Origin: Candidatus Nomurabacteria bacterium | GTDB taxonomy: Bacteria > Patescibacteriota > Saccharimonadia > JAGOAT01 | Length of the DNA stretch: 64,000 bases | NCBI GenBank assembly: GCA_020639315.1 | Contig: JACKGM010000001.1 | Span: 310,767-374,766 of the forward strand | Direction of reading: 5' to 3' | Shown here: piece by piece, positions 6,846-63,204 of the stretch | Layout of the letters: each line of letters starts with the position of its first letter | Numbering within the stretch: the first letter of the stretch is position 1 | Position numbers and translations under genes: made by a program | Notes under the pieces: generated by a model | The model's database searches: none | What the model was told of the DNA's origin: nothing | What the model saw: the letters and a program-made list of their open reading frames with translations, nothing else

Positions 6846-6847
6846 GG

Positions 6848-10300: not shown

Positions 10301-10328
10301 TTGGTTAAGAGGTGATATCAGGTATAAT
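10301..10328 (+). promoter_or_regulatory. Putative promoter TTGGTT-N16-TATAAT for the giant gene
   Basis: Hexamers at 10301-10306 and 10323-10328. The in-frame ATG at 10339 lies 10 nt after the -10 box. Confidence 0.35.
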
Positions 10329-10338
10329 GATAAGCAGT

Positions 10339-16300: not shown

Positions 16301-17109
16301 CCGGAGAGAGTGTAGACTGTACTAGTCCTAGTGACCTAGCTGGAGCCGGATACCCAATCCGTCTAGACGGAGGTAGCAAGGACAACTTTGTCAATGTACT
16401 TGACTCAATAGAGAGTCTAATCGCAGAACCAGACTCCTCCCCCTATGAAGTAGTTACTATTAACAACCTAAACCAAATCCCCCTTGACCTCAGTGATGGT
16501 AAGAGCCCAGACTTCGAACCTGATCCCAACTCCACCACTACCCCAGTCCCTTACCCCACCCTCTATGTCTATGATGGAGATCTAGAGATCTCAGCTAGTC
16601 AAGCTATGCACTACAATGCAGGTCTAGCTACTATCTACGTCAGGGGTAATGTCTACATCAATGGAGACATCATCAGAGATGACAATACAGTGATAGAAGA
16701 CATAGATGAGTATCCCAACCTAGGTATTATCTCTACTGGCAATATCTACATCAGACCAGACACCTCCAAATCAGTAGAGACTCCCCAAGTAATTGACGCC
16801 AGTCTCTTCGCCCAAGGTATGATCGAAACAGCCTACCGTCAAACCACTCAAACCCCAATCCCCGAATACTATACCAACCAACCCCTAATCTTCCATGGTA
16901 CAGTAGCCTCCAAGGGAGATGAGAGTGTCCCAGGAGTCAAAGACCCAATCACCAATCAAGTCTATGCCTTCAAACTAAACAGGACCAATGTCTCAGTCAC
17001 CCTAGGACAAGACTGTAACAATACTCAAGTCTCTGAATGCTTTGCACCAGACAACTCAATCTTTATTGCTACTCCTCCGGGGTTTGAGGATCGGCTTAGC
17101 TCGGAGTGA
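10339..17109 (+). CDS. Giant surface protein (about 2250 aa): N-terminal TM anchor, SGNH/GDSL hydrolase, lytic transglycosylase, four DUF11-type repeats, an Asn/Thr tract and a large C-terminal region
   Basis: One uninterrupted ORF; the ORF track starts it at GTG 10312. SGNH blocks are VLVFGDSIANG, ISLGANDV and DPHPSPAGY (about 11940-12480). Transglycosylase motifs are YKKESNHG, IGPGQFLPSTW, DADGDGEVNAQDADDAI and AIYNGSS (about 12580-12960). Repeats end in ENIASVD or NTAEV...DNNTND. Confidence 0.8.
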   Translation: MEGVKKFFSLDRLFDKWHLVLLVSFSLVIAYFLVRFLDNQNPVVLQVGNQELRVEDLRQKLELGLDYGNQPEDTANAIIDMEAIRQVNAGLGIIPTESDIEQYLGNYTDKALAENIVLQKNLYKYATESRMLKQYYGEYQGQVFIFPFDTMDGSLDQERKDYAYTKAQEYFTEIQTGENPNQVLAAIKADTRLQPGSDSDNSSASLDIDSSENLEDIYGINYPEILDELWRLDSPGLKDIVMISQVDSESGEEYYSQYFYFINITNFKAPRLDIQSEYQQAIDKLLTESYNFEPDKIKQIGFSGLNNIAGRLKGSLIPNVYASAAKNHQAGPSIFKQITKYKTKRSKILKTFGDISGRVLDPDGYAAPGSIVRLKYKNVENPNCLKCDSAFVDIGKAGSTKGKGLGDESAPRVDYRKVNAGVLYNTTEMQGYHDYVELITDSNGYYSLSSIDLLIDCNRHITEHGGGIAVEIAVEVVNQYKDELTLNQPVQTMQVGGSSKLRFTQTNQKKSNLASKLLKGLEFKLGKRVEAADNNQVLVFGDSIANGISSVLDEYLPEGWSMTEDSDDLLSKDGRHAYNTSDNPSLSGLANAETVVASDAGEQADVVVISLGANDVPADASDLSGSNGYANAMQDIISLFIDKQIILVGLYYEGSNYNNTVNAYLEGIAEANEGISYIDWDSMVSEDSSLGQGRDPHPSPAGYKQIAQAIGDYLNNTTPTEAGAEEIEAIEVSGVSAEALNDIPETMLWRYKKYSEEYCPGLDWTVIAGMYKKESNHGRYPNNTVAADGTVSNPIIGDVLTRSGERAIGPGQFLPSTWSSVGFDADGDGEVNAQDADDAIASSVRYICPGVGKNDNYKSAVAIYNGSSSYYTGVMNWSSRYKGTLSESLSITSAADAGGSSVNEGTSSADVKSNNDHVVKAPAIATRTRTTPRETPSGTSFNSRNSINPDLGGKPEDKPDPDPNPPETPDIEGKLPPLERPVISIKKYVGHSTDDLSDAQDSATAVKFYPGQSIVYQVVITHQSGADATKVVWSDENLDGFVSGGLMELGDWTSDTQVDDIFSFPLKQGEEITFLREGTISLDAGLFGLDQESVLNSTAALENIASVDELNDADPGIASGDPANILPTIAEVKLDKLVSNISDNILDQPADDLEHTVFFGPGEEIEYKMVITNEGPDGAVGLIWADDSLPTFATFEGWKLEDGSDAPEMLFDPSVSEDTLESGESITLINRGRINPDAGDFGVGTSLDPRGGYENIASVDPLTHDSNLENNTNPAWISPKLVDLTIKKQVSNLTETPFLSPGTSPYYLSDGPIYYDADSIDNAVSFGPSEEIEYRIEIINNGPDEATSISFTDPDLPDELVDWESDGWINAETGETVSSGDTIFPIPAEGAPTEFLWPEESKTIDPETKAETTVNNITEGKRVRIVLTKKGRIKNDLANTDWFQSNTAHQNTAEVSTINPETNYDNNTNDAYIDPKVTDIIIGKVGQTGNDTGLAGKELTWTIRVVNNGKDSAISLVDNGGIKLTDYLNLKDTYNETVTYQCVPAYACSVPTGEINSTDNPEGILDLELYLGPGFGDMEQVDFIDILSDEELSANQTDTTNNNTTTNNNTNTTNTNNTNTTTNTNTTNNTTNNTDTTQTTNTDLTTLPVCETGRFIGINKATDTTTGFNPDINEDGNGDLYVLFNTNCFSSYPDLSHFELTDLSLSSDEVVNYLTQYQGGKIAYYQTPTHLNTTNQVDIQITARLADHVTYGDDVTTQAVDEICNPSDKNNPDQKVHVEKTETVAWELSLDNNTAPLRCIPVMLCYNEDGQALASYPGKEGEDFYLSFVGVDNEGNKLYDQSLDELIARDDLAGLDVICRKPTTCELKVTRTIVLANGTEETTDVEVTELFDGSAAGADTTDLGYYNFSLECQNLEDGQSPNLTIEVIRRLFGPYFAIEDGSATVLGEIVKGVYPEDNDLDITRHTHILTATNEISSIFCSLTEIMAAGESVDCTSPSDLAGAGYPIRLDGGSKDNFVNVLDSIESLIAEPDSSPYEVVTINNLNQIPLDLSDGKSPDFEPDPNSTTTPVPYPTLYVYDGDLEISASQAMHYNAGLATIYVRGNVYINGDIIRDDNTVIEDIDEYPNLGIISTGNIYIRPDTSKSVETPQVIDASLFAQGMIETAYRQTTQTPIPEYYTNQPLIFHGTVASKGDESVPGVKDPITNQVYAFKLNRTNVSVTLGQDCNNTQVSECFAPDNSIFIATPPGFEDRLSSE
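15121..15270 (+). repeat. Low-complexity ACC/AAC/ACT codon tract encoding an Asn/Thr-only linker inside the giant CDS
   Basis: It translates to TDTTNNNTTTNNNTNTTNTNNTNTTTNTNTTNNTTNNTDTTQTTNTD. Confidence 0.9.
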
Positions 17110-17140: not shown

Positions 17141-17310
17141 TGTCATCCTCCAGTTAAATACTGGATCTCCGGTATTACCCTCCGGGTAATCCGAAGATGA
17201 CAGGAGGAGGGCATTGTCATCCTCCGAAGTTCGGAGAACTTACGGGGGATCCAGTATCTTGCATCGTGCATTGTCATCCTCCGAATTCTCCTTGTCCTGT
17301 CATTCTCCAA
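17141..17310. repeat. REP/BIME-like hairpin repeat cluster A
   Basis: There is a full forward unit at 17216-17257 (GTCATCCTCCGAA-hairpin-TTACGGGGGATCCAGTAT) and a reverse subtype-2 unit at 17158-17202. Half units GTCATCCTCC are also present. Confidence 0.8.
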
Positions 17311-17385
17311 AATCCCCTATTCCCCTTGCCAAGACTATGGCGGTTGTGGTTAAATGAAATAGTAGGAATTTGAAAACAAATAAAA

Positions 17386-26560: not shown

Positions 26561-26664
26561 CTGTCGTCCTCCGAATTCTAAACCTGTATTGTCATCCTCT
26601 GAAACCTACTACTCTTCTGTCATCCTCCAAAGCTCAGAGAGCTTACGGGGGATCCAGTATTTGA
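26561..26664. repeat. REP/BIME-like hairpin repeat cluster B
   Basis: Half units start at 26563 and 26591. A full forward unit lies at 26619-26660. Confidence 0.75.
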
Positions 26665-28591: not shown

Positions 28592-28622
28592 TATTATTGG
28601 GCTTGTTCTCTAATATTTGTAT

Positions 28623-28954
28623 TATAGCAAGTTAAAAACAAAACCAGACTTTTGACCCAACTCTAGAGTCTATAACCCTGTTGCCATATAAACTTGCGAG
28701 GTCAAAGCTGATGATTTTTATTCCAGAATACCAAAACACGACAAAGCATAACAGGAGTTACGCTGCGAAGTGTTTTGCTAGTCTGGGGCAAAAATGGCAG
28801 TTTTGAAGCCGTGAGGTTATATGGCAACAGGGTTAGTTTATCAAGCTAGTTTTCTTACTCACCATATCTATGGATATGGCTCTTAAGAAGAACTACCTTT
28901 CTAGTTCTCTATAGTACAGCTCAAATTGTCTGGTTTTGGTTTGAGCTTGCTATA
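28623..28954. mobile_element. MITE-like element family 1, long copy (332 bp), carrying a nested palindromic insertion at 28674-28834
   Basis: The terminal inverted repeats are TATAGCAAGTTAAAAACAAAACCAGAC and GTCTGGTTTTGGTTTGAGCTTGCTATA. The internal element is bounded by a perfect 18-bp inverted repeat, AACCCTGTTGCCATATAA / TTATATGGCAACAGGGTT. Confidence 0.75.
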
Positions 28955-28963
28955 GATCCATGG

Positions 28964-29210
28964 TAATGCGGAGATACTGGATCCCCCGTAATCCTCTTCA
29001 TAGGATTCGGAGGATGACAATGCACCTCTCTCCTGTCATCTTCGGATTTCTCTAAAAGAGAAATACCGGAGATCCAGTATTTGAATTTGGTATTAAAGTA
29101 ATGCGGAGATACTGGTTCCCCCGTAAGTTCTCCGAACTTCGGAGGATGACAAGATAAGGGACGGGTTTCGGAGGATGACAATGCCCGGGTTGGTTCTAGG
29201 AGGATGAGAA
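28964..29210. repeat. REP/BIME-like hairpin repeat cluster C, with units in alternating orientation
   Basis: Units lie at 28974-29018 (reverse), about 29036-29080 (forward, subtype 2) and about 29109-29150 (reverse). Half units are also present. Confidence 0.8.
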
Positions 29211-30200: not shown

Positions 30201-30201
30201 T

Positions 30202-30310
30202 TATAGCAAGTTAAAAACAAAACCAGACTTTTGACCCAACTCAGGAGTCTATAAAGCTAATTTTCTATAGTACAGCTCAAATTGTCCGGTTTTGTTTTGA
30301 GCTTGCTATA
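30202..30310. mobile_element. MITE-like element family 1, short copy (109 bp)
   Basis: It has the same terminal inverted repeats as 28623-28954 with most of the interior missing. It starts 1 nt after the rpsT stop codon. Confidence 0.75.
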
Positions 30311-30415: not shown

Positions 30416-30445
30416 CCGATGACGACCCAGATGACGATGAAGGTC

Positions 30446-30860
30446 AAATACTGGATCCCCCGTAAACCCTTCGGGTTTCGGAGGATGACAAGACAAGAGA
30501 GAGTTTCGGAGGATGACAAGACCCTCCCCGTGTCATCTTCGGATTTCTCTAAAAGAGAAATACCGGAGATCCAGTATTTGAATTTGGTATTAAAGTAATG
30601 CGGAGATACTGGTTCCCCCGTAAGTTCTCCGAGCTTCGGAGGATGACGAGAGTTGGGTCACTAAGCCAAAATTTCGCAGGGATTTATGTGAGATCCAGTA
30701 TTTGGGTTAGGAATTAGGACAATGCAGAGATACTGGATCCCCCGTAAACCCTCTGGGTTTCGGAGGATGACAATGCACTATGCCAGATACTGTGTCACCG
30801 TAAGTTTTTTGAACTTCGGAGGATGACAAGACAGGTGGCAGGTTTCGAGGGACGACAAAA
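30446..30860. repeat. REP/BIME-like hairpin repeat cluster D, the largest cluster
   Basis: Reverse units lie at about 30448-30490, 30606-30647, 30730-30772 and 30787-30828. A forward subtype-2 unit lies at about 30533-30577. The segment 30531-30650 differs from 29034-29153 at only 2 of 120 positions. Confidence 0.8.
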
Positions 30861-30883: not shown

Positions 30884-31237
30884 CTAACCGCCAATACTCT
30901 TTAGAACAAAGCCGATAATCGCGTAAGACAGTAGGGCAATCACTATCCCAATGATTGCATAGAGAATAGTATTTCTAGCAGATTCAAATGCCTTGGGGTC
31001 TCCTTGAGACAGTATCATCCTCAGCCCAGCAATAATAATCACTATCACTGACGCGATGCCGATGATTACTAAAAGAACTTGGGTAACCTTAGAAAAGGTT
31101 GTGTCAATACTCTTGCCTTCAAGATCAGTTCCATTAGCAGCACAGCTTGCTCCACCTGCAATACTTGAGAAATCTGTACACGCAGCGTAAACTTTCCAGC
31201 TAAATAGTCCAAGTGTGTTATATATAAAATCTATCAA
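30884..31237 (-). CDS. VirB2/TrbC-like T4SS pilin paralog 1 (no obvious signal peptide, TTG start)
   Basis: It has a Cys-X12-Cys loop followed by two TM helices, VLLVIIGIASVIVIIIAGL and ILYAIIGIVIALLSYAIIGFV, flanking QGDPKAFESARN. Confidence 0.6.
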   Translation of the reverse strand: MIDFIYNTLGLFSWKVYAACTDFSSIAGGASCAANGTDLEGKSIDTTFSKVTQVLLVIIGIASVIVIIIAGLRMILSQGDPKAFESARNTILYAIIGIVIALLSYAIIGFVLKSIGG

Positions 31238-31242
31238 AATAT

Positions 31243-31596
31243 TTACCCAATACTAGTCAAGACAAAGTTGATAATCGCGTAAGACAGTAGGGCAATCACT
31301 ATCCCAATGATTGCATAGAGAATAGTATTTCTAGCAGATTCAAATGCCTTGGGGTCTCCTTGAGAGAAGACCATTCTCAGCCCAGCAATAATAATCACTA
31401 TCACTGACGCGATGCCGATCACTACCAAAAGTACTTGGGTAACACTCGAAAATACTTCACCAATAGTCTTACTCTTATCAATGTCTTCAACATTATTTAC
31501 AGCACAGTTAACTCCACCTTGAATAGTCCCACCACAAAGATCAGCAAAACTGCCATGAAAAAGATTACTAAGCATATTGGCAATACTAGAAAACAT
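31243..31596 (-). CDS. VirB2/TrbC-like T4SS pilin paralog 2 (no obvious signal peptide)
   Basis: Its C-terminal half matches paralog 1, including an identical DNA stretch of about 95 nt. The N-terminal part has diverged and carries a Cys-X10-Cys loop. Confidence 0.6.
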   Translation of the reverse strand: MFSSIANMLSNLFHGSFADLCGGTIQGGVNCAVNNVEDIDKSKTIGEVFSSVTQVLLVVIGIASVIVIIIAGLRMVFSQGDPKAFESARNTILYAIIGIVIALLSYAIINFVLTSIG

Positions 31597-31604
31597 CTGC
31601 CCTT

Positions 31605-32003
31605 CTAGTTGCCAGTTTCAAATTGACCGACGACGAATCGAACGATTGCAAAGGCAAGTATGGCGATCACGATCCCAATAATTGCGTAGAGAATAGTATT
31701 TCTGGCAGATTCGGCAGCCTTTTGATCACCTTGACTCAGGACATAACGAAAGCCCCCAATGATCAGCATGATGACCGAGACCACCCCGATAGCATATAGT
31801 AAGAAATTGGTAATGTTTTCGATATTGACTGTTAAGTCTGATTGTTGTGAATCATCTTTGGCTTGACAGGCGCCTTGCAGAATTGGGTTACCACCGCTAC
31901 TATCACAATCAGCACCTGAGCTAGGTGCGGCGTAAGCCATATGCACAGCCAGGAAGCTGGAGGCACTAGCAAGTGAGTAGTTAATTTTATTTAATAGTGT
32001 CAT
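31605..32003 (-). CDS. VirB2/TrbC-like T4SS pilin paralog 3 (has a signal peptide and a strong SD)
   Basis: I prefer the ATG at 32003, preceded by AGGAGA, over the ORF-track start at 32078. The signal-like N-terminus is MTLLNKINYSLASASSFLAVHMAYA, followed by a Cys-X13-Cys loop and two TM helices. Confidence 0.65.
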   Translation of the reverse strand: MTLLNKINYSLASASSFLAVHMAYAAPSSGADCDSSGGNPILQGACQAKDDSQQSDLTVNIENITNFLLYAIGVVSVIMLIIGGFRYVLSQGDQKAAESARNTILYAIIGIVIAILAFAIVRFVVGQFETGN

Positions 32004-32115
32004 TTGATCTCCTATGATTATACTTTTATTGACCTTAAGCATTATTGTACCAAGTTTTATGATTTCTGCAAGGGGCAAATAATCACAAGCAAAATTTTGT
32101 GCTATGCTAGTTTTG

Positions 32116-33933
32116 ATGCAGATTAAACAATTCTTCTCCGACCATCATCGTTTGGTTTCCTTTATAGCTGGAAGCCTGATTGGAGGCTTAGTTTTTGTCA
32201 AAGTTTTTGGGCTACTGGTTCTAAACCCGACCAATGTTGGCTGGCTACTAAATGGTAATGATTTGGCGCAACATTACTTGGGCTGGGCATTTTATCAGCA
32301 GTCTCCCGTAAGCTTTCCGCTTGGGTCTATTGGTAATTTGGCCTATCCCTTACCTATGTCAATAGTATTTCTAGATTCTATTCCGTTGCTCGCTATCCCT
32401 CTAAAGCTTCTAACCTCTTGGGTCCAGACTCCTATTCAGTACTTTGGGATCTGGGGATTGGTTAGCTTTGGTTTGCAGGGTGGTATTGCAGCTTTGATAG
32501 TGTCGCGCTGGACAAAGAACCAGTTGGTTACTAGTCTAGCAGGACTAATTATCGTAATGTCACCGATTATGCTCGCTAGGATGTTTGTTCATACCGCACT
32601 AGGTGGACAGTGGATATTGCTATTGGGATTACTGGTGGCATTAGAGGCTAGACTTGATTTACGCAAAATCCCTAAGTCCTCAGGATCGCCTCCGAAGTCC
32701 GAACTACTTTTTAATGCTGTCACCGATGCATCAGCATCGCTCCCATTAGATAAAAGGACTTTCAAGTCTGCGGAAGGCAAGCCTGGAGTATCTGAGGTTT
32801 TGCGTAAGTCGAGTAGACACTGGAGGTTAACGGTTGCAGTGAGTGTCTGGACAATGGTTTTGGTTTTATCATCTATGATCCATCCATATTTTACACTGAT
32901 GATAGGGGTATTATACTTGACCTGGTTGATATTGCAGCCGATCTCATGGGTTAAGAAATTACTTAGCTTGATTATTGCAATCAGTATTGTAGCAATCAGC
33001 TTTTGGATTATCGGTGGATTTATGGTCAAGAATGTGGAGGGTACTGGACTGGGCAACTTTTCGTATACCCTAATCTCGTTTATAGATAGTGCAGGTTGGT
33101 CTAGATTTTTGCAACCAATGGGTACCAAACCTGAGGGTATGGGGTATGCTGGCTTGGGGGTAATCATGCTGACGGTTGTATCGTCTATGATTCTGGCTTT
33201 TCAATCAAAGGAGACTGCAAAACTACTAAATTGGCGCAATATCTTAGCGTCGATACCGCTGATAGGGTTGATGATTTTTGCGCTTGGGCCTGTGATTAAG
33301 ATGGGATCACAAGATTTATGGGCTTACTCAGTTCCAGGTATGGTTGAGGGTATTTGGTCGATCTTTAGAGCCACAGGGCGAATGGCATGGGTTCATTATT
33401 ATCTGGTTACTTTTAGTGCAATCTGGGTGATTTGTAGGAGACTTCGATATCCTATGGTCATCCTTGTATTATTTATAAGTGCCGGAGTGTTACAAACTAT
33501 TGATATATCTGGATCGGCTCAATGGCTCAACAAGTCCAGTCAAATCAAGGAACGTTCTATGATCAAGGATTTACCAATAGTATCAGAAGAATGGGATCAG
33601 ATATCAAAAAACAGACAACATATTATATATTTGGGTAAATTGGTTGACCCACAGTATTTTACCGAGGTTAGTAGTGTTGCCCTCAAGTATCACCTTACTT
33701 TAAACACAGGATATTTTGCCCGAACACCGAGTGACATGATTCAAACAGGAATTGATTCAGCAATAGCATCCCTAGAGGAAGGGAATGCTCAGATTGATAC
33801 CATCTACATGACCAGGGACCAAGGATTAACTGACTCATTGACCGGAGTGCGGGGGTTAAAAATTACTAAAGTCGATAGCTATTGGGTCATTACTAATATA
33901 GCTAATATAGCTCCCGAAAAACAAAATCTGTAA
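32116..33933 (+). CDS. Polytopic membrane protein (DUF6311-like, likely glycan-assembly related) carrying an in-frame palindromic-element insertion
   Basis: The protein has many TM helices. I prefer the ATG at 32116, which lies 7 nt after TGcTATGCT (32100-32108); the ORF track starts at 32104. Residues LDLRKIPKSS...EVLRKSSRH are encoded by the element at 32653-32813. Confidence 0.6.
   Translation: MQIKQFFSDHHRLVSFIAGSLIGGLVFVKVFGLLVLNPTNVGWLLNGNDLAQHYLGWAFYQQSPVSFPLGSIGNLAYPLPMSIVFLDSIPLLAIPLKLLTSWVQTPIQYFGIWGLVSFGLQGGIAALIVSRWTKNQLVTSLAGLIIVMSPIMLARMFVHTALGGQWILLLGLLVALEARLDLRKIPKSSGSPPKSELLFNAVTDASASLPLDKRTFKSAEGKPGVSEVLRKSSRHWRLTVAVSVWTMVLVLSSMIHPYFTLMIGVLYLTWLILQPISWVKKLLSLIIAISIVAISFWIIGGFMVKNVEGTGLGNFSYTLISFIDSAGWSRFLQPMGTKPEGMGYAGLGVIMLTVVSSMILAFQSKETAKLLNWRNILASIPLIGLMIFALGPVIKMGSQDLWAYSVPGMVEGIWSIFRATGRMAWVHYYLVTFSAIWVICRRLRYPMVILVLFISAGVLQTIDISGSAQWLNKSSQIKERSMIKDLPIVSEEWDQISKNRQHIIYLGKLVDPQYFTEVSSVALKYHLTLNTGYFARTPSDMIQTGIDSAIASLEEGNAQIDTIYMTRDQGLTDSLTGVRGLKITKVDSYWVITNIANIAPEKQNL
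32653..32813. mobile_element. Palindromic element family 2, copy a (about 161 bp), inside a CDS with the reading frame preserved
   Basis: Its termini are CTTGATTTACGCAAAATCC and GGTTTTGCGTAAGTCGAG. It is homologous to the intergenic copy at 63043-63204 in reverse orientation. Confidence 0.7.
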
Positions 33934-33975
33934 TTTTGACTGTACTGTATCATAATGTTAGCGAATAACTGTGAA

Positions 33976-34010
33976 AATCCTGGGGATTCAGGGATTTTGT
34001 GTAATTCGAG
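33976..34010. repeat. Partial copy (right end) of palindromic element family 2
   Basis: TTCAGGGATTTTGTGTAATTCGAG matches the right terminus seen at 37673-37696 and 63181-63204. Confidence 0.5.
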
Positions 34011-37064: not shown

Positions 37065-38480
37065 TTGGAAAATAAGAAGAAATTTGTAGTTATCTCAATG
37101 GATCAGGTCAATAAGATCATGTCTGGTCCTGGGCAAAGGGCCTGGGAACTGGCCATAAGGCTATCAGAGCAGTATCAGGTCACATTGTATACACCAAACA
37201 TTTCAGATCTAACAAGTGAGCAATTCCAGATAAAAAGTTTTGATTTGTTGAACCCGATTGAGCTTAGGGCTGATTGCGGGAGTGCAGATTATATATTGTA
37301 TCAGACTGTCAGGTTGTATCTAAGGGAGTGGGCTGGCAAGGATACCAAGATCATTGCAGACCTTTTTGACCCAATATTTTTAGAGGCACTTGAAGTCTAT
37401 AAGTATAAGAGTCTAAAGTACCAATCTGAGATTCATCAGGCACTCATTGAGGAGATCAAACAAACTATTATCAATTCGGACTATTTCATCTGTGCCAATC
37501 AGCGTCAAAAAGATCTATGGTTAGGATTTATTTTTTTACTAGGTAAGACTAATCCTGCTAGCTACCATGATTATCCTAACCTGGAAAATTTGATTACGAT
37601 TGTCCCATTTGGCTTGCCAGAGAAACTCGACTTACGCAAAACCTCGAATACTCCAGGCTTGCCTTCCAAAGATTCAGGGATTTTGCGTAATTCGAGTAAA
37701 GGAAATCTCAACAGTAAGGCTAGTCTCCGCAAGAAATTCGGCTTTTCGGATCATGATAAGTTAGTAGTCTGGACAGGAGGTCTCTGGAACTGGTTTGATA
37801 CGGAGATTATCATCGAGGCGTTTAAGATAATTAGCCAGACCAGACGAGATATCAAGATGGTTTTTTATGGTTATAAACTTGTCAATACCGATATGGGATC
37901 TGAGGTCACGATGTCTGCGGATAAGGCCTACGCCTTAGCAAAAAAATACAGGCTACTTGATAGCGCGGTATTTTATTATCCTGATTGGATTAGCCCTTCT
38001 GAGATGCTTAATCACCTCGAAGAAGCTGACATTGGGATTAGTACCCACTATGACAACCTTGAGACTAGGTTTTCCAATCGGACTAGGGCTTTATATTTCA
38101 TTAAGGCAAGATTGCCTTTTATTACGACCAAGGGTGACATCTTTGCTGAGTTAGTGGAGCAAAAACAGCTTGGTCGCGTGGTAGATCAGGGCGATACTAA
38201 TCAGCTGGCTAATACGATAATCGAATTGCTAGACTCGGACTTGAATTCGATTAAAGGTCAATTTGATCTGATAGACCAAGAGTTAAGCTGGGATCAGGGA
38301 GTAGCCAACCTTAATCAAATGCTTGCAATAGACAATACCAAGTATCAACAGTTTAAATTGAAGCCCAAAAAAGATACCAAACTCAAGTACTTGATCAGAG
38401 AAACCCTAAGAAAGCTGGGTTTACTAGGTATTGTTAGGTCACTTCGGATTAAGGTTAAAGAGAGGCAAATAAATGAATAG
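37065..38480 (+). CDS. GT-B fold (GT4-like) glycosyltransferase with an in-frame palindromic-element insertion
   Basis: TTG start. Residues LDLRKTSNTPGLPSKDSGILRNSS, encoded at 37626-37696, sit between the two Rossmann-like halves. Confidence 0.6.
   Translation: MENKKKFVVISMDQVNKIMSGPGQRAWELAIRLSEQYQVTLYTPNISDLTSEQFQIKSFDLLNPIELRADCGSADYILYQTVRLYLREWAGKDTKIIADLFDPIFLEALEVYKYKSLKYQSEIHQALIEEIKQTIINSDYFICANQRQKDLWLGFIFLLGKTNPASYHDYPNLENLITIVPFGLPEKLDLRKTSNTPGLPSKDSGILRNSSKGNLNSKASLRKKFGFSDHDKLVVWTGGLWNWFDTEIIIEAFKIISQTRRDIKMVFYGYKLVNTDMGSEVTMSADKAYALAKKYRLLDSAVFYYPDWISPSEMLNHLEEADIGISTHYDNLETRFSNRTRALYFIKARLPFITTKGDIFAELVEQKQLGRVVDQGDTNQLANTIIELLDSDLNSIKGQFDLIDQELSWDQGVANLNQMLAIDNTKYQQFKLKPKKDTKLKYLIRETLRKLGLLGIVRSLRIKVKERQINE
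37626..37696. mobile_element. Palindromic element family 2, copy b (about 71 bp, short form), inside a CDS with the frame preserved
   Basis: The sequence is CTCGACTTACGCAAAACCTCGAATACTCCAGGCTTGCCTTCC...GGGATTTTGCGTAATTCGAG. Its left 42 nt match the reverse complement of 32772-32813 apart from two substitutions. Confidence 0.7.
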
Positions 38481-40194
38481 ATACCCAGATGACTATTCAC
38501 CTAAGGTATCATTTGTGGTTTTGAGCTATAATTCCTCTCAGTATTTGGAGGCTTGCCTAAAGTCTATTAAACGTCAAACCTATCAAAACTGGGAACTTAT
38601 CGTAGTCGATAATAACTCTAGTGATGACTCTTCTCGGATTGTGAAAGAGTTAGATTTCGTCGATAGTTTTTACCAAAATACTGCCAACTCTGGCTATGCC
38701 GAAGGTCAACGGATTGCTTTAGGGTTAATTAGTCCAAAGTCAGAGTGGGTAGCCCTGATCAATGCTGATAGTATTTTGGATGAGCAGTGGCTAATGTCTC
38801 TAATAGATTTTTTAAGAGGCAAGCAGTATATTGGAGCAATTAGAGGTGCCTCATACCCCTACCAAGATCACTTTAAGTCAGCTAAAAGGACTGATCCCAA
38901 AGCAAGGATTTCTTACCAATCAATCGATCCTCTGACTGCTTACACTAGTATGATATCAGATGACGGGTCCAGACTCAGTGTCAATAACCTTGCAGGGGAC
39001 GCTGTACTCGTCAATCTTTCTGTCTCTCAGATCTTGGGATATTTTGACTCGGATTTTTTTGCTTACTATGAGGAGACCGATTTGTTTGCTAGGATCAAAC
39101 GCCATGGCTGGAACTTGTCTTATACACCAGAGGCAGCTAGCTGGCATTTGGGTAGAGGGAGCAATATATCAGATGAGTTTTATTATTATCTAATTCAACG
39201 CAATAGATTTAGGTATGCAGTCAAAAACTTTGACACAAGCTATCTAGTCAGGTTTTTATTTTACTATTACCTGGAAACATTTTATTTTCTGAGGATTATT
39301 TATCATAATCATCGAGATAAATATGCAATCGCTAGCTTGAGAGCGATTGCTGTCAATACATTGAGATTTTTTACTACCCTAAGGTCAAGGAAAGAAGTGG
39401 TGGATTATGGCTATAGTTATTCAACTATTCTGGAGATTGAGGCAATGGCTGATATTACAATTGTAATTACTTGCTATAATAAGGCAAGCTATATCAAGCA
39501 AGCAATTGATAGTGCGCTTAGTCAGTCTTATGCTCCAGCCGAGGTGATAGTGATCGATGATTGCTCGACTGATAGCTCCAGGGATCTGATTCAAGAATTT
39601 CAAGGTAGGGTTACGATCATAGATAATGCTAAGAATCTTGGCGTGTCTAAGGTTAAAAATATGGCAATTGATCAAGCAAAGACCAAATATCTTGTGATTC
39701 TAGACGGGGATGATTATTTGGAGCCGGATTATCTTAGGCAACTGGGATATAAGATCAAACATGAAACTCTAGATGTGGTCTATAGTGCTGCTTGGCATAA
39801 GGGAGAAAGAGATAATATTTCACCAATCCCAGCAACAACTTCAATTTTGAAATTGTTAGAGCGTAATTACATTAATAGTAGTGCACTCTTAAACCTCGAG
39901 TTTGTTAAGGGGATGAATATTAGATTTGATCAGGATATGAAGCTCGGAGCAGAGGATTGGGAATTTTTCTTGCAGATGATGAAGTCTGGGGCAAGGTTTG
40001 GTTCGCTAGGACAAGCTCTAATCAATATTAGAATCAATAGTCAGGGGGTAAACTCAAAATTTGTCAAAAACTTTGAACAGGTCAATGACTATATCAAGGG
40101 TAAGCACCGCTTATTGTTTGGATTAAGGGGACTGTATGTACCAGTCATTTATCTAAGAAGGGGGTTAGCTCATTGGCTATTTTTATATAGGTAG
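38473..40194 (+). CDS. Bifunctional glycosyltransferase with two GT2 domains
   Basis: The two GT2 N-terminal signatures are VSFVVLSYNS...VVDNNSSDDS and ITIVITCYNK...VIDDCSTDSS. Confidence 0.75.
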   Translation: MNRYPDDYSPKVSFVVLSYNSSQYLEACLKSIKRQTYQNWELIVVDNNSSDDSSRIVKELDFVDSFYQNTANSGYAEGQRIALGLISPKSEWVALINADSILDEQWLMSLIDFLRGKQYIGAIRGASYPYQDHFKSAKRTDPKARISYQSIDPLTAYTSMISDDGSRLSVNNLAGDAVLVNLSVSQILGYFDSDFFAYYEETDLFARIKRHGWNLSYTPEAASWHLGRGSNISDEFYYYLIQRNRFRYAVKNFDTSYLVRFLFYYYLETFYFLRIIYHNHRDKYAIASLRAIAVNTLRFFTTLRSRKEVVDYGYSYSTILEIEAMADITIVITCYNKASYIKQAIDSALSQSYAPAEVIVIDDCSTDSSRDLIQEFQGRVTIIDNAKNLGVSKVKNMAIDQAKTKYLVILDGDDYLEPDYLRQLGYKIKHETLDVVYSAAWHKGERDNISPIPATTSILKLLERNYINSSALLNLEFVKGMNIRFDQDMKLGAEDWEFFLQMMKSGARFGSLGQALINIRINSQGVNSKFVKNFEQVNDYIKGKHRLLFGLRGLYVPVIYLRRGLAHWLFLYR

Positions 40195-40215
40195 TAGTCG
40201 TATATAATGATTAGT

Positions 40216-41742
40216 ATGGATTTGATTAATAGCTTGTCTTACAGTCCTCAAGAACTAAGCTTTGGAACATCTGGACTGAGGGGTCTAGTGGCAGACATGA
40301 CTGATTTGGAATGCTATATCAATACTATGGGGTTTATTGATTATCTAAAAAAAACCGATCAAGATATCAAAAAGATTGCAATAGCAGGAGATCTGAGGAG
40401 CTCAACTCCTAGAATTCTTGAGGCAATCGTGGTAGCAATCACTGATCAAGGAATAGAATATGATTATTGTGGCTTAATTCCAACCCCGGCATTAGCTTAT
40501 TATGCAATCAATCAATCAACACCATCAATCATGGTCACCGGGTCCCATATCCCCGATGATCGCAATGGAATCAAATATTACAAGTCTGATGGTGAAATTT
40601 TAAAATCAGATGAAGCTGAAATCAAGCAGTCGGTAGCCAGGGTTCGATCACGACTTTATAGTAGTACTAGCTTTGATTTTGATTCTATGGGTAGATTGAA
40701 AACCAGACCAACCTTGCCCGAGCCAAATCTTGAGGCTGAGACTATATACAAACAGCGTTATTTAGACTTTTTTGACAGTCAGGCTTTGGCTGGAAGACAA
40801 ATTGTTTTTTATCAGCATTCAGCTGTCGGCAGAGAGCTAATTCCAGAAATCTTGACTGGGCTGGGAGCTGAGGTGATTACAGTAGGTCTTTCAGAAGAAT
40901 TTATCCCGGTGGATTCAGAGAATATTGATATTAAAAAACAGAAATTTTACCACCAAATCGCTGATCAGTACCCAGATGCCTTTGCGATTGTCTCAACAGA
41001 CGGAGACAGTGATCGCCCGCTGGTCTTCGATCAGGATGGTAATTTTCAGATGGGAGATATCTTAGGTCTGGCAGTCGCTAGAGAGCTGGGGGCTAGGGTA
41101 GTAGCTTTCCCAGTTAGTTCCAATAGCGCGCTTGCGAATTATTGCCAAGATAATGATATTAACTATCAATTGACCAAGATAGGATCGCCTTATGTGATTA
41201 AGAGTCTGGAAGACAGCGAGGGTCAAGTAATCAAGGCTGGCTGGGAGGTCAATGGGGGATTTATCTTAGGCTCAGATATATCTGAGGCGGGAAGGCAACT
41301 CAAGGCTTTGCTGACTAGAGACGCAACCTTACCAATCATCGTCAGTCTACTTGCAAGTATCAATCAAGGTCAATCAGTCTCAGAGTATTTCAAAAGGCTC
41401 ACAACTAGCTATACCCAGGTAGGGTTAATTGATAATTTCCCAGTAACTAGTAGTCAAGCTATTGTGGAGCTGTTATCTAGCCGATCAGATAATAGCAGTA
41501 AGATTATCGAGCAGATTTTTAGCCAAGAGCATGGATTCGGCAAGTATCAGTCTATTGATTTAACCGATGGAGTTAGGATATTATTTGATAATGGAGAGAT
41601 AGCCCACATCAGACCATCTGGAAACGCACCTCAGCTCAGGATTTATAGCAATGCCACTTCTCAGGCTAGGGCTAATCAGATCGTCGAGCTGGGGATCAAA
41701 GAACCCGATGGGTTGCTCAGGCAGCTAGAGCAAGAGATCTAG
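40216..41742 (+). CDS. Phosphomannomutase/phosphoglucomutase family enzyme
   Basis: The active-site loop is TGSHIPDDRNGIKYY and the metal loop is STDGDSDRP. The ORF track starts at 40207; I prefer the ATG at 40216, which lies 7 nt after TATAAT (40203-40208). Confidence 0.8.
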   Translation: MDLINSLSYSPQELSFGTSGLRGLVADMTDLECYINTMGFIDYLKKTDQDIKKIAIAGDLRSSTPRILEAIVVAITDQGIEYDYCGLIPTPALAYYAINQSTPSIMVTGSHIPDDRNGIKYYKSDGEILKSDEAEIKQSVARVRSRLYSSTSFDFDSMGRLKTRPTLPEPNLEAETIYKQRYLDFFDSQALAGRQIVFYQHSAVGRELIPEILTGLGAEVITVGLSEEFIPVDSENIDIKKQKFYHQIADQYPDAFAIVSTDGDSDRPLVFDQDGNFQMGDILGLAVARELGARVVAFPVSSNSALANYCQDNDINYQLTKIGSPYVIKSLEDSEGQVIKAGWEVNGGFILGSDISEAGRQLKALLTRDATLPIIVSLLASINQGQSVSEYFKRLTTSYTQVGLIDNFPVTSSQAIVELLSSRSDNSSKIIEQIFSQEHGFGKYQSIDLTDGVRILFDNGEIAHIRPSGNAPQLRIYSNATSQARANQIVELGIKEPDGLLRQLEQEI

Positions 41743-41818
41743 GCATGTTATAATAATGGTTGTAAAGCTGTATGGCAACCGGATTGGTTTAGTTGTCAGA
41801 TAAAATGGAGGGTGAATT

Positions 41819-42859
41819 ATGATAAAAAAGGCATTGATTACGGGCGTAGCGGGTCAGGATGGCAGACATCTAGCGAAGTTGCTAGATAAAAAAGGTTATC
41901 AGGTATTTGGAACACTCAGAGGGCAGCTTGAGGCTAGTCACCCTCGGTACCAGGGAGTTCAAAGAGATATGCCATTCCTTAAGATTATGATTGCAGATTC
42001 CTTGGATCTGAGTGCTCTGACTAGGGCGGTTAAGGAAATCAAACCAGATGAGGTTTATAATCTTGCTGCGATTAGCCATGTGGGTTATTCTTTTCATAAC
42101 CCCTTGTTGACGGCTGATGTTACAGCCAAGGGGGTATTAAATATCCTAGAGGCAATTAGATTGGCTGGCCTTCAAGATAAAACAAGATTTTATCAAGCCT
42201 CAACCTCAGAAATGTTTGGAGGGCTAGAGTATAATCGTCCAGACCAAGGATATGATGAAAGCGCAGCATTTCATCCTCGTAGTCCCTATGGTGTTGCCAA
42301 ATTATATGGGTATTGGATTACGAGAAATTATCGAGAGAGCTATGGTATGTATGCGACCAATGGTATTCTTTTTAACCACGAAGGGGAGAATCGAGGCCCA
42401 GAATTTGTGACTAGGAAGATTAGTCTAGCAGTAGCTAGAATTAAGGCAGGGGATCAGGAATATCTGGAGCTAGGCAATCTAGATGCTAAGCGTGATTGGG
42501 GTTATGCTGGAGATTATGTAGAGGGAATGTGGCGAATCTTGCAGCAAGATCAGCCTGAAGATTACGTTTTAGCAACTGGAGAGACCCATTCAGTCAGGGA
42601 TTTTTGTAATCTAGCTTTCCAGGTTATTGGCTTGACAATAACCTGGAAAGGAGAGGGAGAAGATGAGGTTGGCTTAGATCAAGATGGCATTATGCGTATT
42701 AAGATTAATTCAGAATACTATCGTCCAGCTGAAGTTGATCTTTTACTTGGAGATCCGAGTAAAGCAGAGCAGAAGCTTGGCTGGAGTAGACATACTAGCT
42801 TTGGCGATCTAGTCAAGTTGATGGTAGATAAAGATCTAGAGAGATTATCTGCTAGCTAA
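41819..42859 (+). CDS. gmd: GDP-mannose 4,6-dehydratase
   Basis: Motifs ALITGVAGQDGRHLAKLL, FYQASTSEMFG and SPYGVAKLYGYWITRNYRESYG...LFNHEGENRG. The SD is GGAGGG. Confidence 0.9.
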   Translation: MIKKALITGVAGQDGRHLAKLLDKKGYQVFGTLRGQLEASHPRYQGVQRDMPFLKIMIADSLDLSALTRAVKEIKPDEVYNLAAISHVGYSFHNPLLTADVTAKGVLNILEAIRLAGLQDKTRFYQASTSEMFGGLEYNRPDQGYDESAAFHPRSPYGVAKLYGYWITRNYRESYGMYATNGILFNHEGENRGPEFVTRKISLAVARIKAGDQEYLELGNLDAKRDWGYAGDYVEGMWRILQQDQPEDYVLATGETHSVRDFCNLAFQVIGLTITWKGEGEDEVGLDQDGIMRIKINSEYYRPAEVDLLLGDPSKAEQKLGWSRHTSFGDLVKLMVDKDLERLSAS

Positions 42860-58399: not shown

Positions 58400-58414
58400 A
58401 ACACCTAGATTTGT

Positions 58415-58578
58415 TATAGTAAGCTCAAAACCAAACCGGACAATTTGAGCTGTACTATAGAGAACTAGAAAGGTAGTTCTTCTTAAGAGCCATATCCATA
58501 GATATGGTGAGTAAGAAAACTAGCTTGATAGACTCTAGAGTTGGGTCAAAAGTCTGGTTTTGTTTTTAACTTGCTATA
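58415..58578. mobile_element. MITE-like element family 1, medium copy (164 bp, inverted relative to 28623-28954), between divergent dedA and sortase
   Basis: It has the same terminal inverted repeats and the internal block AGAACTAGAAAGGTAGTTCTTCTTAAGAGCCATATCCATAGATATGGTGAGTAAG. It lacks the nested 161-bp insertion. Confidence 0.75.
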
Positions 58579-62235: not shown

Positions 62236-62256
62236 TTTTGTTTTTAACTTGCTATA
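62236..62256. repeat. Solo terminal fragment of MITE family 1
   Basis: CTTTTGTTTTTAACTTGCTATA matches the terminus at 58557-58578. Confidence 0.5.
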
Positions 62257-62378
62257 TGCTCTAGGTAAGCTAATTACCCTGTCGGATCCGATCACTTTTG
62301 AGGTGGCCCTACACTCATCAAGCCACCGACAAAGTCGGTGGTGCCTGACTTGTGACATAAAGCCACTAGTCGGTAGCC

Positions 62379-63042: not shown

Positions 63043-63204
63043 CTCGACTTACGCAAAACCTTGGTCTATACAGGGTCACTTTCCAGTGATTCAGAAGTTC
63101 TTTTATCTGATGGAAGCGATACCTTAGTATCGGTGACAGCTTAAAAAAGGAGTTCTGGACGCTGGAGGTGAGTCTGGGAGTTCAGGGATTTTGCGTAAGT
63201 CGAG
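63043..63204. mobile_element. Palindromic element family 2, copy c (162 bp), intergenic, at the compositional boundary
   Basis: Its termini are CTCGACTTACGCAAAACC and GGATTTTGCGTAAGTCGAG. The interior is homologous to 32653-32813. Confidence 0.7.

What the first reader, a model, noticed from the sequence alone, without database searches (positions are those of the whole stretch)
32653..32813. Palindromic elements sitting in-frame inside two protein-coding genes (RPE-like behaviour)
The element with termini CTCGACTTACGCAAAA...TTTTGCGTAAGTCGAG occurs intergenically (63043-63204, plus a partial copy at 33976-34010). It also occurs inside the polytopic membrane protein gene (32653-32813) and, as a 71-bp short form in the opposite orientation, inside the GT4-like gene (37626-37696). 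In both genes the frame stays open. The element adds a hydrophilic peptide between TM helices or between the two Rossmann halves, in each case starting LDLRK and ending (V/I)LR(K/N)SS. The two left-terminus differences in the copy at 32653 (CTT/CTC and GAT/GAC) fall on third codon positions. The element is also stop-free on the antisense strand, which produces the spurious ORF 32589-33167. This mirrors Rickettsia palindromic elements, which insert in-frame into genes. I am not aware of an equivalent described for this lineage.
Basis: partly seen in the sequence, partly recalled or inferred. Interest (0 to 1): 0.65.

Follow-up and report, generated by a model that had tools for sequence, protein, structure and literature searches.

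The report
Gene-dwelling palindromic mini-transposon in Saccharibacteria
A 161-base palindromic mini-transposon of Saccharibacteria sits inside apparently intact genes without breaking their reading frame, much as the palindromic elements of Rickettsia do: a known kind of element, apparently not yet described in this lineage of tiny-genome bacteria.

Summary
The repeat is a MITE-type element. Its standard form is exactly 161 bp, has 16-nt perfect terminal inverted repeats, and is flanked by a 4-bp T-N-N-A target duplication. It folds into one long hairpin with strong covariation. Real matches come from Saccharibacteria/Saccharimonadales MAGs or from unassigned metagenome contigs; one partial match lies in an Ignavibacteriota-labelled MAG.

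Because 161+4 = 165 bp (55 codons) and 71+4 = 75 bp (25 codons), insertion keeps the reading frame. The frame that reads LDLRK...LRKSS is stop-free on both strands in most copies, including intergenic ones.

Sixteen homologues of the DUF6311 membrane protein and sixteen of the GT4 protein all lack the inserted peptide. AlphaFold places both inserts in low-confidence loops. A second assembly of the same species (GCA_020428505.1) carries the same GT4 insert. It also carries a further 161-bp in-frame copy inside glutamate racemase (murI). A metagenome contig has a copy at the 3' end of a shikimate-kinase ORF.

In-frame MITEs are a known kind, so this is a new member. No autonomous transposase was found. 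A strand asymmetry in folding remains unexplained.

The parts
32653..32813 (-). 161-bp full-length copy of the palindromic element, in-frame inside the DUF6311 membrane-protein gene. Its canonical orientation is on the minus strand. It encodes residues 184-237, LDLRKIPKSS...SEVLRKSS.
   Evidence: nhmmer E = 2e-32. The homologue alignment shows a clean gap. The AlphaFold low-confidence segment 186-224 lies inside the insert. The hairpin is -57.3 kcal/mol, z = -5.5.
32649..32652 (.). Left copy of the 4-bp target-site duplication TAGA. The right copy is at 32814-32817.
   Evidence: flanks: gcTAGA|CTTGAT ... GTCGAG|TAGAca.
32814..32817 (.). Right copy of the target-site duplication TAGA.
37626..37696 (+). 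71-bp short form of the element: 161 bp minus 90 bp, apparently deleted between TTCAG direct repeats (the repeats are read in copy C). It lies in-frame inside the GT4-type glycosyltransferase gene and encodes residues 188-211, LDLRKTSNTPGLPSKDSGILRNSS. The flanks are GAAA/TAAA.
   Evidence: The homologue alignment gap is about 25 aa. The AlphaFold low-confidence segment 189-217 lies between the two Rossmann halves. The same insert is present in the independent assembly GCA_020428505.1 at L029 521-591.
63043..63204 (+). 162-bp intergenic copy with a near-perfect hairpin. The flanks are TAGG/TAGA. It has stop codons in all frames.
   Evidence: -84.5 kcal/mol, z = -10.1; E = 1e-38.
33974..34010 (+). 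Truncated right end of the element, in the 89-bp spacer between the DUF6311 gene stop and the ABC-2 permease start. It shares the junction GATTCAGGGATTTTG with the 71-bp short form.
   Evidence: D14: 96% identity to 37671-37698; E = 2e-4.
32104..33933 (+). Host gene 1: polytopic membrane protein of family DUF6311, 609 aa, in a cell-envelope polysaccharide cluster.
37065..38480 (+). Host gene 2: GT4-type glycosyltransferase (Glycos_transf_1 / Glyco_trans_1_4), 471 aa.
32589..33167 (-). Spurious antisense ORF of 192 aa. It stays open because the element is stop-free on both strands.
   Evidence: It is antisense to a gene with conserved homologues.

Best explanation
This is a non-autonomous transposable element (a MITE) specific to Saccharibacteria.

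Anatomy (shown). The standard form is 161 bp with 16-nt perfect terminal inverted repeats, CTCGACTTACGCAAAA...TTTTGCGTAAGTCGAG. The whole element is one long imperfect palindrome. It inserts at T-N-N-A sites and duplicates those 4 bp.

Mobilisation (inferred). It is presumably moved in trans by a DDE-type transposase. That transposase has not been identified.

Why it can sit in genes. Three properties are shown:
1. Element plus duplication is 165 bp, or 55 codons. The short form gives 75 bp, or 25 codons. The downstream frame is therefore never shifted.
2. The frame starting CTC GAC TTA CGC AAA (LDLRK) and ending ..CTN CGT AAG TCG AGT (LRKSS) is free of stop codons on both strands in most family members. 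An insertion in either orientation is therefore read through whenever the T of the target is a third codon position.
3. The encoded 24-55 residues are hydrophilic and are predicted to be disordered.

Consequence (inferred). Insertions that land in loops are tolerated.

Genic copies (shown). In this species at least three genes carry such copies: the DUF6311 membrane protein, a GT4 glycosyltransferase and glutamate racemase MurI.

Origin of the translatable design (inferred). In a genome that is about 92% coding, sub-families whose new copies do not truncate genes leave more surviving copies. On this view the translatable design is a family-level adaptation of a selfish element, not a host function.
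For: Significance, TIR, TSD and length:
- 7 matches against 0.4 expected.
- 19 of 21 long copies from the window, 6 MAGs and metagenomes are exactly 161 bp.
- Flanking 4-mers match perfectly in about half of the copies (TAGA, TAAA, TCAA, TGAA, TTTA, TCTA, TTAA, TATA, TTCA). Most of the others differ at one position, and three differ at two to three.

Lineage:
- 16 of 19 genome hits are in Saccharibacteria/Saccharimonadales MAGs.
- Two of the other three match over only 19-20 nt and look like chance (about 4 chance matches are expected, my estimate from the collection size).
- The third (L003, an Ignavibacteriota-labelled MAG) matches about 57 nt of the profile at E = 1e-4. It may be a partial copy or a mis-binned contig.

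Insertion rather than ancestral sequence:
- Clean gaps in 16 + 16 homologues.
- For MurI, solved structures align to residues 3-24 and 83-267 on either side of the insert.

Frame properties:
- Frame 0 is open in 13/21 copies (canonical strand) and 18/21 (reverse strand). Shuffled interiors give 1.4 and 2.65. Frame 1 is open in only 1/21 and 6/21.
- The copies fall into 12 lineages with mean interior identity 54%. By my tally of the per-copy results onto those lineages, 8 are open on both strands.
- Simulated neutral substitution keeps both strands open with probability only 0.09-0.26 at 20-40% divergence.

Loop location: the inserts coincide with the longest low-pLDDT segments of otherwise confident models (pLDDT 82 and 79).

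Recurrence and persistence:
- The same GT4 insert is in a second assembly whose neighbouring genes differ by up to about 5%.
- murI in that assembly carries a 161-bp in-frame copy, L035 660-820.
- L022 carries a copy 13 nt before the stop of a shikimate-kinase ORF that overlaps the aroE start.
- All four genic copies are in the same codon phase.

Compact genome: ORFs cover 92.5% of the window, and 93% of TNNA sites are in ORFs.
Against: - No autonomous element with the same ends, and no transposase gene, was found near any copy. Mobilisation in trans is therefore inferred only.
- No nucleotide-level empty site was found. The nearest homologues of the host proteins are under 40% identical.
- Most copies outside this species are intergenic. 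A profile search with the reverse-strand peptide found only short spurious ORFs. Genic residence is therefore a minority state, and it is unclear how selection against stops is sustained.
- No expression or proteomic data were available.
- The hairpin is conserved by covariation and folds better on one strand. A simple double-stranded cut-and-paste model neither needs nor explains this.
Confidence: 0.85

Rival explanations
1. The host ORFs are inactivated genes (pseudogenes). They stay open only because the element is frame-neutral and stop-free by construction, so an open frame says nothing about function.
For: The element keeps any ORF open in one of three phases regardless of selection. No expression data exist. 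The genic copies have the weakest hairpins (-57, -68 and -78 kcal/mol, against -80 to -96 for most intergenic copies). This could simply mean they are old and decaying.
Against: Both host proteins keep every column that is invariant among their homologues, on both sides of the insert (41 and 52 columns). AlphaFold folds both confidently apart from the insert. The GT4 ORF, insert included, is intact in two assemblies whose neighbouring genes have diverged. murI is normally a single essential gene for peptidoglycan synthesis (established knowledge), and its active-site regions align with solved racemases. All inserts fall in loops, not in core elements.
Confidence: 0.07
2. The peptide segment is ancestral or lineage-specific protein sequence (a linker), and the intergenic copies derive from it rather than the reverse.
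For: The frame is open and the peptide ends are conserved (LDLRK, LRKSS) in many copies.
Against: No homologue of any of the three host families has the segment. Three unrelated proteins carry the same DNA in two orientations. The copies have TIRs and 4-bp target duplications. Most copies are intergenic.
Confidence: 0.02
3. The element is kept because it does something for the cell. It might act as a structured RNA (an mRNA stabiliser, an RNase III site or a small RNA) or as a flexible protein linker recruited by envelope-biosynthesis enzymes.
For: There is strong covariation: 25 of 52 pairs show double changes, and the covariation score is 0.417 against 0.163 for shuffles. The fold is strand-specific: G.U to A.C is 94:20, and the canonical strand is more stable in 20 of 21 copies. 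Three of the four window copies lie in one polysaccharide gene cluster.
Against: Orientation relative to neighbouring genes is mixed, about 11 to 8 (my tally from the neighbouring-ORF table). No promoter or terminator consensus lies in the element and there is no Rfam match. The interior peptide sequence is poorly conserved, 31-48% to the window copy. The insertion sites are unrelated. Clustering in one region is equally explained by local transposition.
Confidence: 0.1
4. The element is not moved by a classical double-strand cut-and-paste transposase. It moves through a single-stranded hairpin intermediate of one particular strand, as the IS200/IS605-type palindrome-associated elements do.
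For: The whole-length hairpin is conserved by compensatory change, and G.U wobble is tolerated on one strand only.
Against: IS200/IS605-type elements insert next to a fixed tetra- or pentanucleotide without duplicating it (established knowledge). Here the flanking 4-mers vary from copy to copy and match each other within a copy, which is the signature of staggered double-strand cleavage. The 16-nt perfect TIRs are typical of DDE transposon ends.
Confidence: 0.06

Closest known systems
Rickettsia palindromic elements (RPE; Ogata et al. 2000, 2002), and the protein-coding palindromic repeats reported in Wolbachia (Ogata et al. 2005). As summarised in PMC2229807 and PMC10969869.
   Same: Both are palindromic elements of roughly 100-160 bp that fold into a long stem-loop, occur in intergenic regions, and are fused in-frame inside conserved protein genes. 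Both have stop-free reading frames. In both, the inserted peptide is compatible with the fold of the host protein. Both occur in small, host-dependent genomes.
   Different: This family has an unambiguous 4-bp T-N-N-A target duplication, whereas the review table marks TSD as '?' for RPE. It has 16-nt perfect TIRs (12 bp listed for RPE). Its length is almost invariant at 161 bp. Genic copies are a minority outside this one species, whereas nearly half of R. conorii RPEs are genic.
Classical bacterial MITEs: Correia/NEMIS (Neisseria), ERIC, RUP and BOX (pneumococcus), Nezha (Nostoc/Anabaena), QMITE1/2 (Coxiella).
   Same: Small size, TIRs, TSD, a long hairpin transcript, mostly intergenic location, and occasional in-frame fusions or C-terminal extensions of genes (PMC3184786, PMC5896051, PMC10969869).
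   Different: For several of those a partner IS is known; here none was found. Element plus TSD being a multiple of three, together with family-wide avoidance of stops in one frame on both strands, is not a general MITE property. RUP, for example, has stops in all six frames (PMC2229807).
[quoted passage not shown]
   Same: Coding DNA with dyad symmetry that can be read on either strand and spreads among genes of small-genome bacteria.
   Different: PARCELs are tandem arrays of a 25-residue amphipathic domain within surface proteins. They are not single dispersed insertions with TIRs and target duplications.

Membership tests
MITE (bacterial miniature inverted-repeat transposable element) | Small size (about 50-500 bp) with no transposase gene | tested here: met
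   161 bp standard form, with short forms of 58-73 bp. The only open frames encode a low-complexity peptide of up to 54 aa.
MITE (bacterial miniature inverted-repeat transposable element) | Terminal inverted repeats | tested here: met
   16-nt perfect TIR CTCGACTTACGCAAAA / TTTTGCGTAAGTCGAG, conserved across copies.
MITE (bacterial miniature inverted-repeat transposable element) | Target-site duplication flanking each copy | tested here: met
   4-bp T-N-N-A direct repeats that differ between copies. They are identical within a copy in about half of the cases and one mismatch apart in most others.
MITE (bacterial miniature inverted-repeat transposable element) | Many dispersed copies within and between related genomes | tested here: met
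   4 copies in the 64-kb window. One MAG gave 7 exact-end hits. Copies occur in 6 Saccharibacteria MAGs and 9 metagenome contigs.
MITE (bacterial miniature inverted-repeat transposable element) | A cognate autonomous IS with the same ends | tested here: inconclusive
   No pair of ends 0.2-4 kb apart encloses a transposase in any held locus. Lone ends are truncated copies. The public collections could not be scanned again.
MITE (bacterial miniature inverted-repeat transposable element) | Filled versus empty sites in close relatives | tested here: inconclusive
   Only protein-level empty sites were found, in homologues under 40% identical and in PDB racemases. The one close relative (GCA_020428505.1) has the same filled GT4 site.
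RPE (Rickettsia palindromic elements) in the strict sense | Belongs to one of the RPE sequence families of Rickettsia | tested here: not met
   All identifiable hosts are Saccharibacteria. There is no Rfam match. Direct sequence comparison with RPE consensus sequences was not possible with these tools.
RPE-like behaviour (protein-coding palindromes) | Palindromic element inserted in-frame inside conserved protein genes | tested here: met
   DUF6311, GT4 and MurI in this species, plus the shikimate-kinase 3' end in L022.
RPE-like behaviour (protein-coding palindromes) | Element frames free of stop codons beyond chance | tested here: met
   13/21 and 18/21 copies are open, against 1.4 and 2.65 expected. 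8 of 12 lineages are open on both strands (my tally onto the lineages), against a neutral expectation of 0.09-0.26.
RPE-like behaviour (protein-coding palindromes) | Inserted peptide lies where it does not disturb the fold | tested here: met
   This rests on prediction only. The inserts coincide with the longest low-pLDDT loops of the AlphaFold models. The MurI insert lies between the first helix and the next strand when aligned to 2gzm.
RPE-like behaviour (protein-coding palindromes) | Host protein is translated with the insert and remains active | not testable with these tools
   Needs proteomics or enzyme assays.
Intein or self-splicing intron | Conserved splice-junction residues or a ribozyme fold | tested here: not met
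   The insert starts with Leu-Asp and ends Ser-Ser, followed by Arg or Lys. This does not fit the Cys/Ser ... His-Asn + Cys/Ser/Thr pattern of inteins (sequence). No intron family is found in Rfam.
REP / IS200-IS605-associated palindromes | Short (20-40 bp) tagged palindrome inserted next to a fixed tetranucleotide, with no duplication | tested here: not met
   161 bp, with variable duplicated flanks.

The most novel reading that the evidence does not exclude
This MITE family has been shaped by selection to live inside coding sequence of ultra-compact Saccharibacteria genomes. It has a fixed length that, with its 4-bp duplication, equals 55 codons. One frame is kept stop-free in both orientations. 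The product is a disordered, hydrophilic peptide. In addition, a single-stranded form of one particular strand (its own RNA or a DNA intermediate) is under structural selection, which would point to a mobilisation or maintenance mechanism not described for MITEs.
Probability: 0.35. Interest if true: 0.65.

Novelty: new member of a known kind. Interest (0 to 1): 0.55.

Why it matters
Saccharibacteria and other Patescibacteria have genomes of about 1 Mb that are usually described as streamlined. Here a selfish element persists by being translatable instead of staying out of genes.

- It shows that the "protein-coding palindrome" strategy, once called unique to Rickettsia, arose independently in a very distant small-genome lineage. 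This supports the idea that high coding density selects for ORF-compatible mobile DNA.
- It adds 24-55-residue disordered segments to envelope-biosynthesis enzymes, including the normally essential MurI. This is raw material for protein change, and a caution for annotation and for structure-based inference in these uncultured organisms.
- In practice the family produces spurious antisense and intergenic ORFs in databases (70-93-aa "hypothetical proteins"). It may also contribute to fragmentation of MAG assemblies, although this was not tested.
- Cultivable Saccharibacteria with genetic tools now exist. The tolerance of MurI or GT4 to the insert, and the mobility of the element, are therefore testable.

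Tried and rejected
- Exact look-up of the 609-aa membrane protein found nothing on record. The DUF6311 site could therefore not be checked in a second assembly.
- Search for an autonomous partner: ends 0.2-4 kb apart were sought in all held loci, and ORFs were inspected at L017 and L019. No transposase was found. Pfam scans of window ORFs near repeats gave only housekeeping genes.
- Orientation bias of copies relative to neighbouring genes is mixed, about 11 co-oriented to 8 anti (my tally). This gives no support for a terminator- or stabiliser-type role.
- Rfam at gathering and at E up to 1 gave only tRNAs and one chance miRNA hit. The promoter/terminator scan found nothing inside the element.
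- Profile search with the reverse-strand peptide against 5.8 billion proteins returned 11 hits. All are 70-93-aa ORFs made by intergenic copies, and none is a long host protein.
- L001 and L008/L028 at first looked genic. On inspection the element lies upstream of the likely start (L001) or downstream of yidC (L008/L028).
- dN/dS across the GT4 insert could not be computed. The two assemblies differ at only 4 codons in GT4, none of them in the element.
- The viral-contig scan gave one full copy, on a contig that is the same record as metagenome locus L020. The other four hits are single 16-mers that show no further match to the element profile.
- Non-Saccharibacteria genome hits: L002 and L011 match over 19-20 nt only and were treated as chance. 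L003 matches about 57 nt and is left open.
Full report
**1. Observation**

The 16-mer CTCGACTTACGCAAAA has 7 matches in the window at up to 3 mismatches, against 0.40 expected; none of 100 shuffles reached 7.

The matches pair into three complete copies and one lone right end:
- 32653-32813 (161 bp)
- 37626-37696 (71 bp)
- 63043-63204 (162 bp)
- a lone right end, which a profile built from 21 copies extends to 33974-34010

That profile finds nothing else in the window. The copy in the membrane gene is inverted relative to the other two.

ORF 32104-33933 (609 aa) and ORF 37065-38480 (471 aa) read through the element. The peptides are LDLRKIPKSS...SEVLRKSS and LDLRKTSNTPGLPSKDSGILRNSS. The antisense ORF 32589-33167 also exists.

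The two left-end differences of the 32653 copy are synonymous third-position changes, because 32653 is a first codon position.

The intergenic copy is a near-perfect hairpin (-84.5 kcal/mol, z = -10.1). The genic ones are weaker (-57.3 and -25.7 kcal/mol).

**2. Organism and distribution**

The window encodes rpsT, ArgRS, DnaG, RpoD, three T4SS-pilin-like proteins and an envelope-polysaccharide cluster: DUF6311, an ABC-2 permease, a Wzt-like ATPase, GT2, GT4 and GT2-GT2.

The GT4 protein is essentially identical to an NCBI entry from 'Candidatus Saccharibacteria bacterium', assembly GCA_020428505.1. Contig 50 of that assembly matches window 37106-41930 at 96.5% nucleotide identity.

An exact 19-mer of the element end was scanned over 185,579 species genomes and gave 19 loci. 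Sixteen are in Saccharibacteria/Saccharimonadales MAGs, including seven from a single MAG. Two of the other three match over only 19-20 nt and look like chance matches (I estimate about 4 by chance from the collection size). The third, L003 in an Ignavibacteriota-labelled MAG, matches about 57 nt of the profile and is left open. The metagenome scan added 9 loci.

**3. Anatomy of the family**

Of 21 long copies, 19 are exactly 161 bp.

Every copy is flanked by a 4-bp direct repeat of the form T-N-N-A. The repeat differs between copies: TAGA, TAAA, TCAA, TGAA, TTTA, TCTA, TTAA, TATA, TTCA. It is identical on the two sides in about half of the copies. Most of the others are one mismatch apart.

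This is a target-site duplication. Together with the 16-nt perfect TIRs, it identifies a MITE-type element.

The whole element forms one hairpin. Measured on 20 copies over 52 consensus pairs:
- 94.8% of cells are paired, against 81.8% for shuffles.
- 25 pairs show compensatory double changes.
- The covariation score is 0.417, against 0.163 for shuffles and 0.05-0.11 for slid partners.

Short forms of 58, 71 and 73 bp are internal deletions. The 71-bp form lacks 90 bp. In the 162-bp copy C, TTCAG direct repeats lie at the matching positions, so the deletion probably arose between such repeats. The truncated copy at 33974-34010 shares the junction of the 71-bp form.

**4. Why the frame survives**

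161+4 = 165 bp and 71+4 = 75 bp, so insertion never shifts the downstream frame.

One of the three frames is closed by a TAA in the right TIR. Of the other two, the frame CTC GAC TTA CGC AAA (frame 0) is the one that stays open:
- Frame 0 is stop-free in 13/21 copies on the canonical strand and 18/21 on the reverse strand.
- Shuffled interiors give 1.4 and 2.65.
- Frame 1 is open in only 1/21 and 6/21.

The copies fall into 12 lineages whose interiors are on average 54% identical. Tallying the per-copy results onto those lineages, I count 8 that are open on both strands. Simulated neutral substitution from open copies keeps both strands open with probability 0.26, 0.14 and 0.09 at 20, 30 and 40% divergence. 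Stop codons are therefore avoided at the level of the family, including in copies that are now intergenic.

The encoded peptides are hydrophilic. GRAVY is -0.35 to -0.85, and 67-79% of residues are S, T, P, G, D, E, K, R, N or Q.

**5. The inserts are insertions, and they lie in loops**

- *DUF6311.* Sixteen homologues (31-39% identity) all have a gap of 53-55 residues exactly at LDLRK...LRKSS. 41 invariant columns are retained on both sides.
- *GT4.* Sixteen homologues lack about 25 residues at the insert. 52 invariant columns are retained.
- *GT4 model.* AlphaFold with these alignments gives mean pLDDT 82.1. The longest low-confidence stretch is residues 189-217 (insert = 188-211); the only other is residues 434-438. 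It lies between the N-terminal Rossmann half (last strand 177-179) and the C-terminal half (first strand 232-236).
- *DUF6311 model.* Mean pLDDT is 78.8. The longest low-confidence stretch is 186-224, inside the insert (184-237); three others of 3-8 residues lie elsewhere. It lies between helices 164-181 and 229-259.

The short loop of the homologues is positively charged, and so is the insert. By the positive-inside rule the loop is probably cytoplasmic. This is an inference.

**6. More genic copies**

A search of 1.84 billion representative proteins with the canonical-strand peptide of the window copy found P0252. It is a 269-aa glutamate racemase (Pfam Asp_Glu_race) from the same assembly, GCA_020428505.1.

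Its gene carries a 161-bp copy at L035 660-820, in-frame, with flanks TCAA/TAAA. The copy is 91% identical to window copy A. Solved racemases align to residues 3-24 and 83-267 on either side of the insert.

In metagenome locus L022, an ORF whose sequence looks like an EPSP-synthase/shikimate-kinase fusion (assigned by eye, not scanned against Pfam) reads through a 161-bp copy. It stops 13 nt later, overlapping the start of the next ORF, which looks like aroE.

All four genic copies have the target T at a third codon position. One is in reverse orientation and three are canonical.

The GT4 insert is identical in the two assemblies of the species. The neighbouring GT2 and PGM genes differ at 37 and 80 codons. 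The insertion is therefore neither an assembly artefact nor brand new.

**7. Limits**

- Outside this species most copies are intergenic, often directly abutting a stop codon that is part of the duplicated TNNA.
- A profile search with the reverse-strand peptide found only 70-93-aa spurious ORFs.
- ORFs cover 92.5% of the window and 93% of TNNA sites are genic. Two genic copies out of four therefore still means that most genic insertions are purged.
- No transposase or autonomous partner was found.
- No nucleotide-level empty site was found.
- No expression data were available.

**8. An unexplained feature**

The canonical strand folds 10-30 kcal/mol better than its complement in 20 of 21 copies. 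Paired cells contain 94 G.U against 20 A.C. The consensus fold is -45.8 kcal/mol with 52 pairs, against -34.2 kcal/mol with 37 pairs for the other strand.

Orientation relative to neighbouring genes is mixed (my tally). The element holds no promoter or terminator consensus and has no Rfam match.

This suggests selection on a single-stranded form of one particular strand. I cannot say whether that form is RNA or DNA.

**9. Comparison with known systems**

The behaviour is that of the Rickettsia palindromic elements: palindromic, stop-free, and in-frame inside conserved genes. RPEs are 105-146 bp with 12-bp TIRs, and whether they make a TSD is uncertain (PMC2229807).

In-frame fusions are also reported for ERIC, BOX/RUP, Anabaena MITEs and Coxiella QMITEs. 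A 2024 review calls them 'not unusual' (PMC10969869; PMC3184786; PMC5896051).

This family is not an RPE by lineage. By every structural criterion tested it is a MITE.

Two full-text searches returned no description of such an element in Saccharibacteria. One search found no paper, and the 10 listed of the 21 hits concern arthropod mites.

**10. Verdict**

This is a new family (a new member) of a known kind. The mobilising enzyme and the strand-specific structural conservation remain open.

Noticed in passing
window 17188-17318, 26585-26664, 28963-29210, 30437-30858: A second dispersed repeat family. Its units contain TTCGGAGGATGACAA and CCGTAAG...GGATCCAGTAT, in both orientations. It is clustered in the intergenic regions around tRNA-Arg/His, hsp20, rpsT and the pilin genes (families D3, D5, D7, D8, D17, I3, I7-I16).
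   Followed up: no
window 28622-28954, 30201-30310, 58414-58578, 62236-62257: A third repeat family, TATAGCAAGTTAAAAACAAAACCAGAC.... Arms 28835-28954 and 58415-58534 are 96% complementary over 120 nt, and 28623-28673 / 58528-58578 are 100% complementary (D9, D10, D18, I1, I4-I6). The window is unusually rich in repeats for a small genome.
   Followed up: no
all long copies of the element (window 63043-63204, 32653-32813; loci L001-L028): One strand of the palindrome folds much better than the other in 20 of 21 copies. G.U to A.C is 94:20 at paired positions. There is no orientation bias relative to neighbouring genes.
   Followed up: partly
L014 2548, L016 3577, L025 1632 (also L007 1659-1819): Several intergenic copies start 1-2 nt after the upstream ORF. 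The duplicated target (TAAA, TTAA, CTAA) therefore contains that gene's stop codon. Stop codons may be among the few safe TNNA targets in these dense genomes.
   Followed up: partly
L034 5458-7098 (Ga0209386_1000071, also listed as IMG/VR UViG_3300025582_000056): A 161-bp copy (6938-7098) lies 50 nt from a bAvd gene (6537-6887) and a reverse transcriptase (5458-6573), which is a DGR-like cassette. The 53-kb contig is also catalogued as viral.
   Followed up: partly
window 30884-32078: Three tandem paralogous genes for small T4SS-pilin-like proteins (117, 117 and 157 aa) with near-identical C-terminal halves. They lie directly upstream of the DUF6311 gene on the opposite strand (D2/D4, 47).
   Followed up: no
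window 15113-15268, inside ORF 10312-17109: A 9-nt periodic repeat (ACC/AAC-rich, 12 overlapping copies) inside a 2265-aa ORF. It probably encodes a Thr/Asn/Pro-type low-complexity tract of a giant surface protein (D1).
   Followed up: no
window 37106-41930 compared with L029: Divergence between the two assemblies of the species is mosaic. GT4 differs at 4 codons, the adjacent GT2-GT2 gene at 37 and PGM at 80. Small indels lie near 40150-40245. This suggests recombination within the polysaccharide cluster.
   Followed up: no
P0241-P0249, P0253, P0254, P0256 (public protein databases): Intergenic copies of the element are annotated in public collections as 61-93-aa hypothetical proteins, because the element is stop-free. 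One BrnA antitoxin entry (P0250) is extended into an upstream copy.
   Followed up: partly
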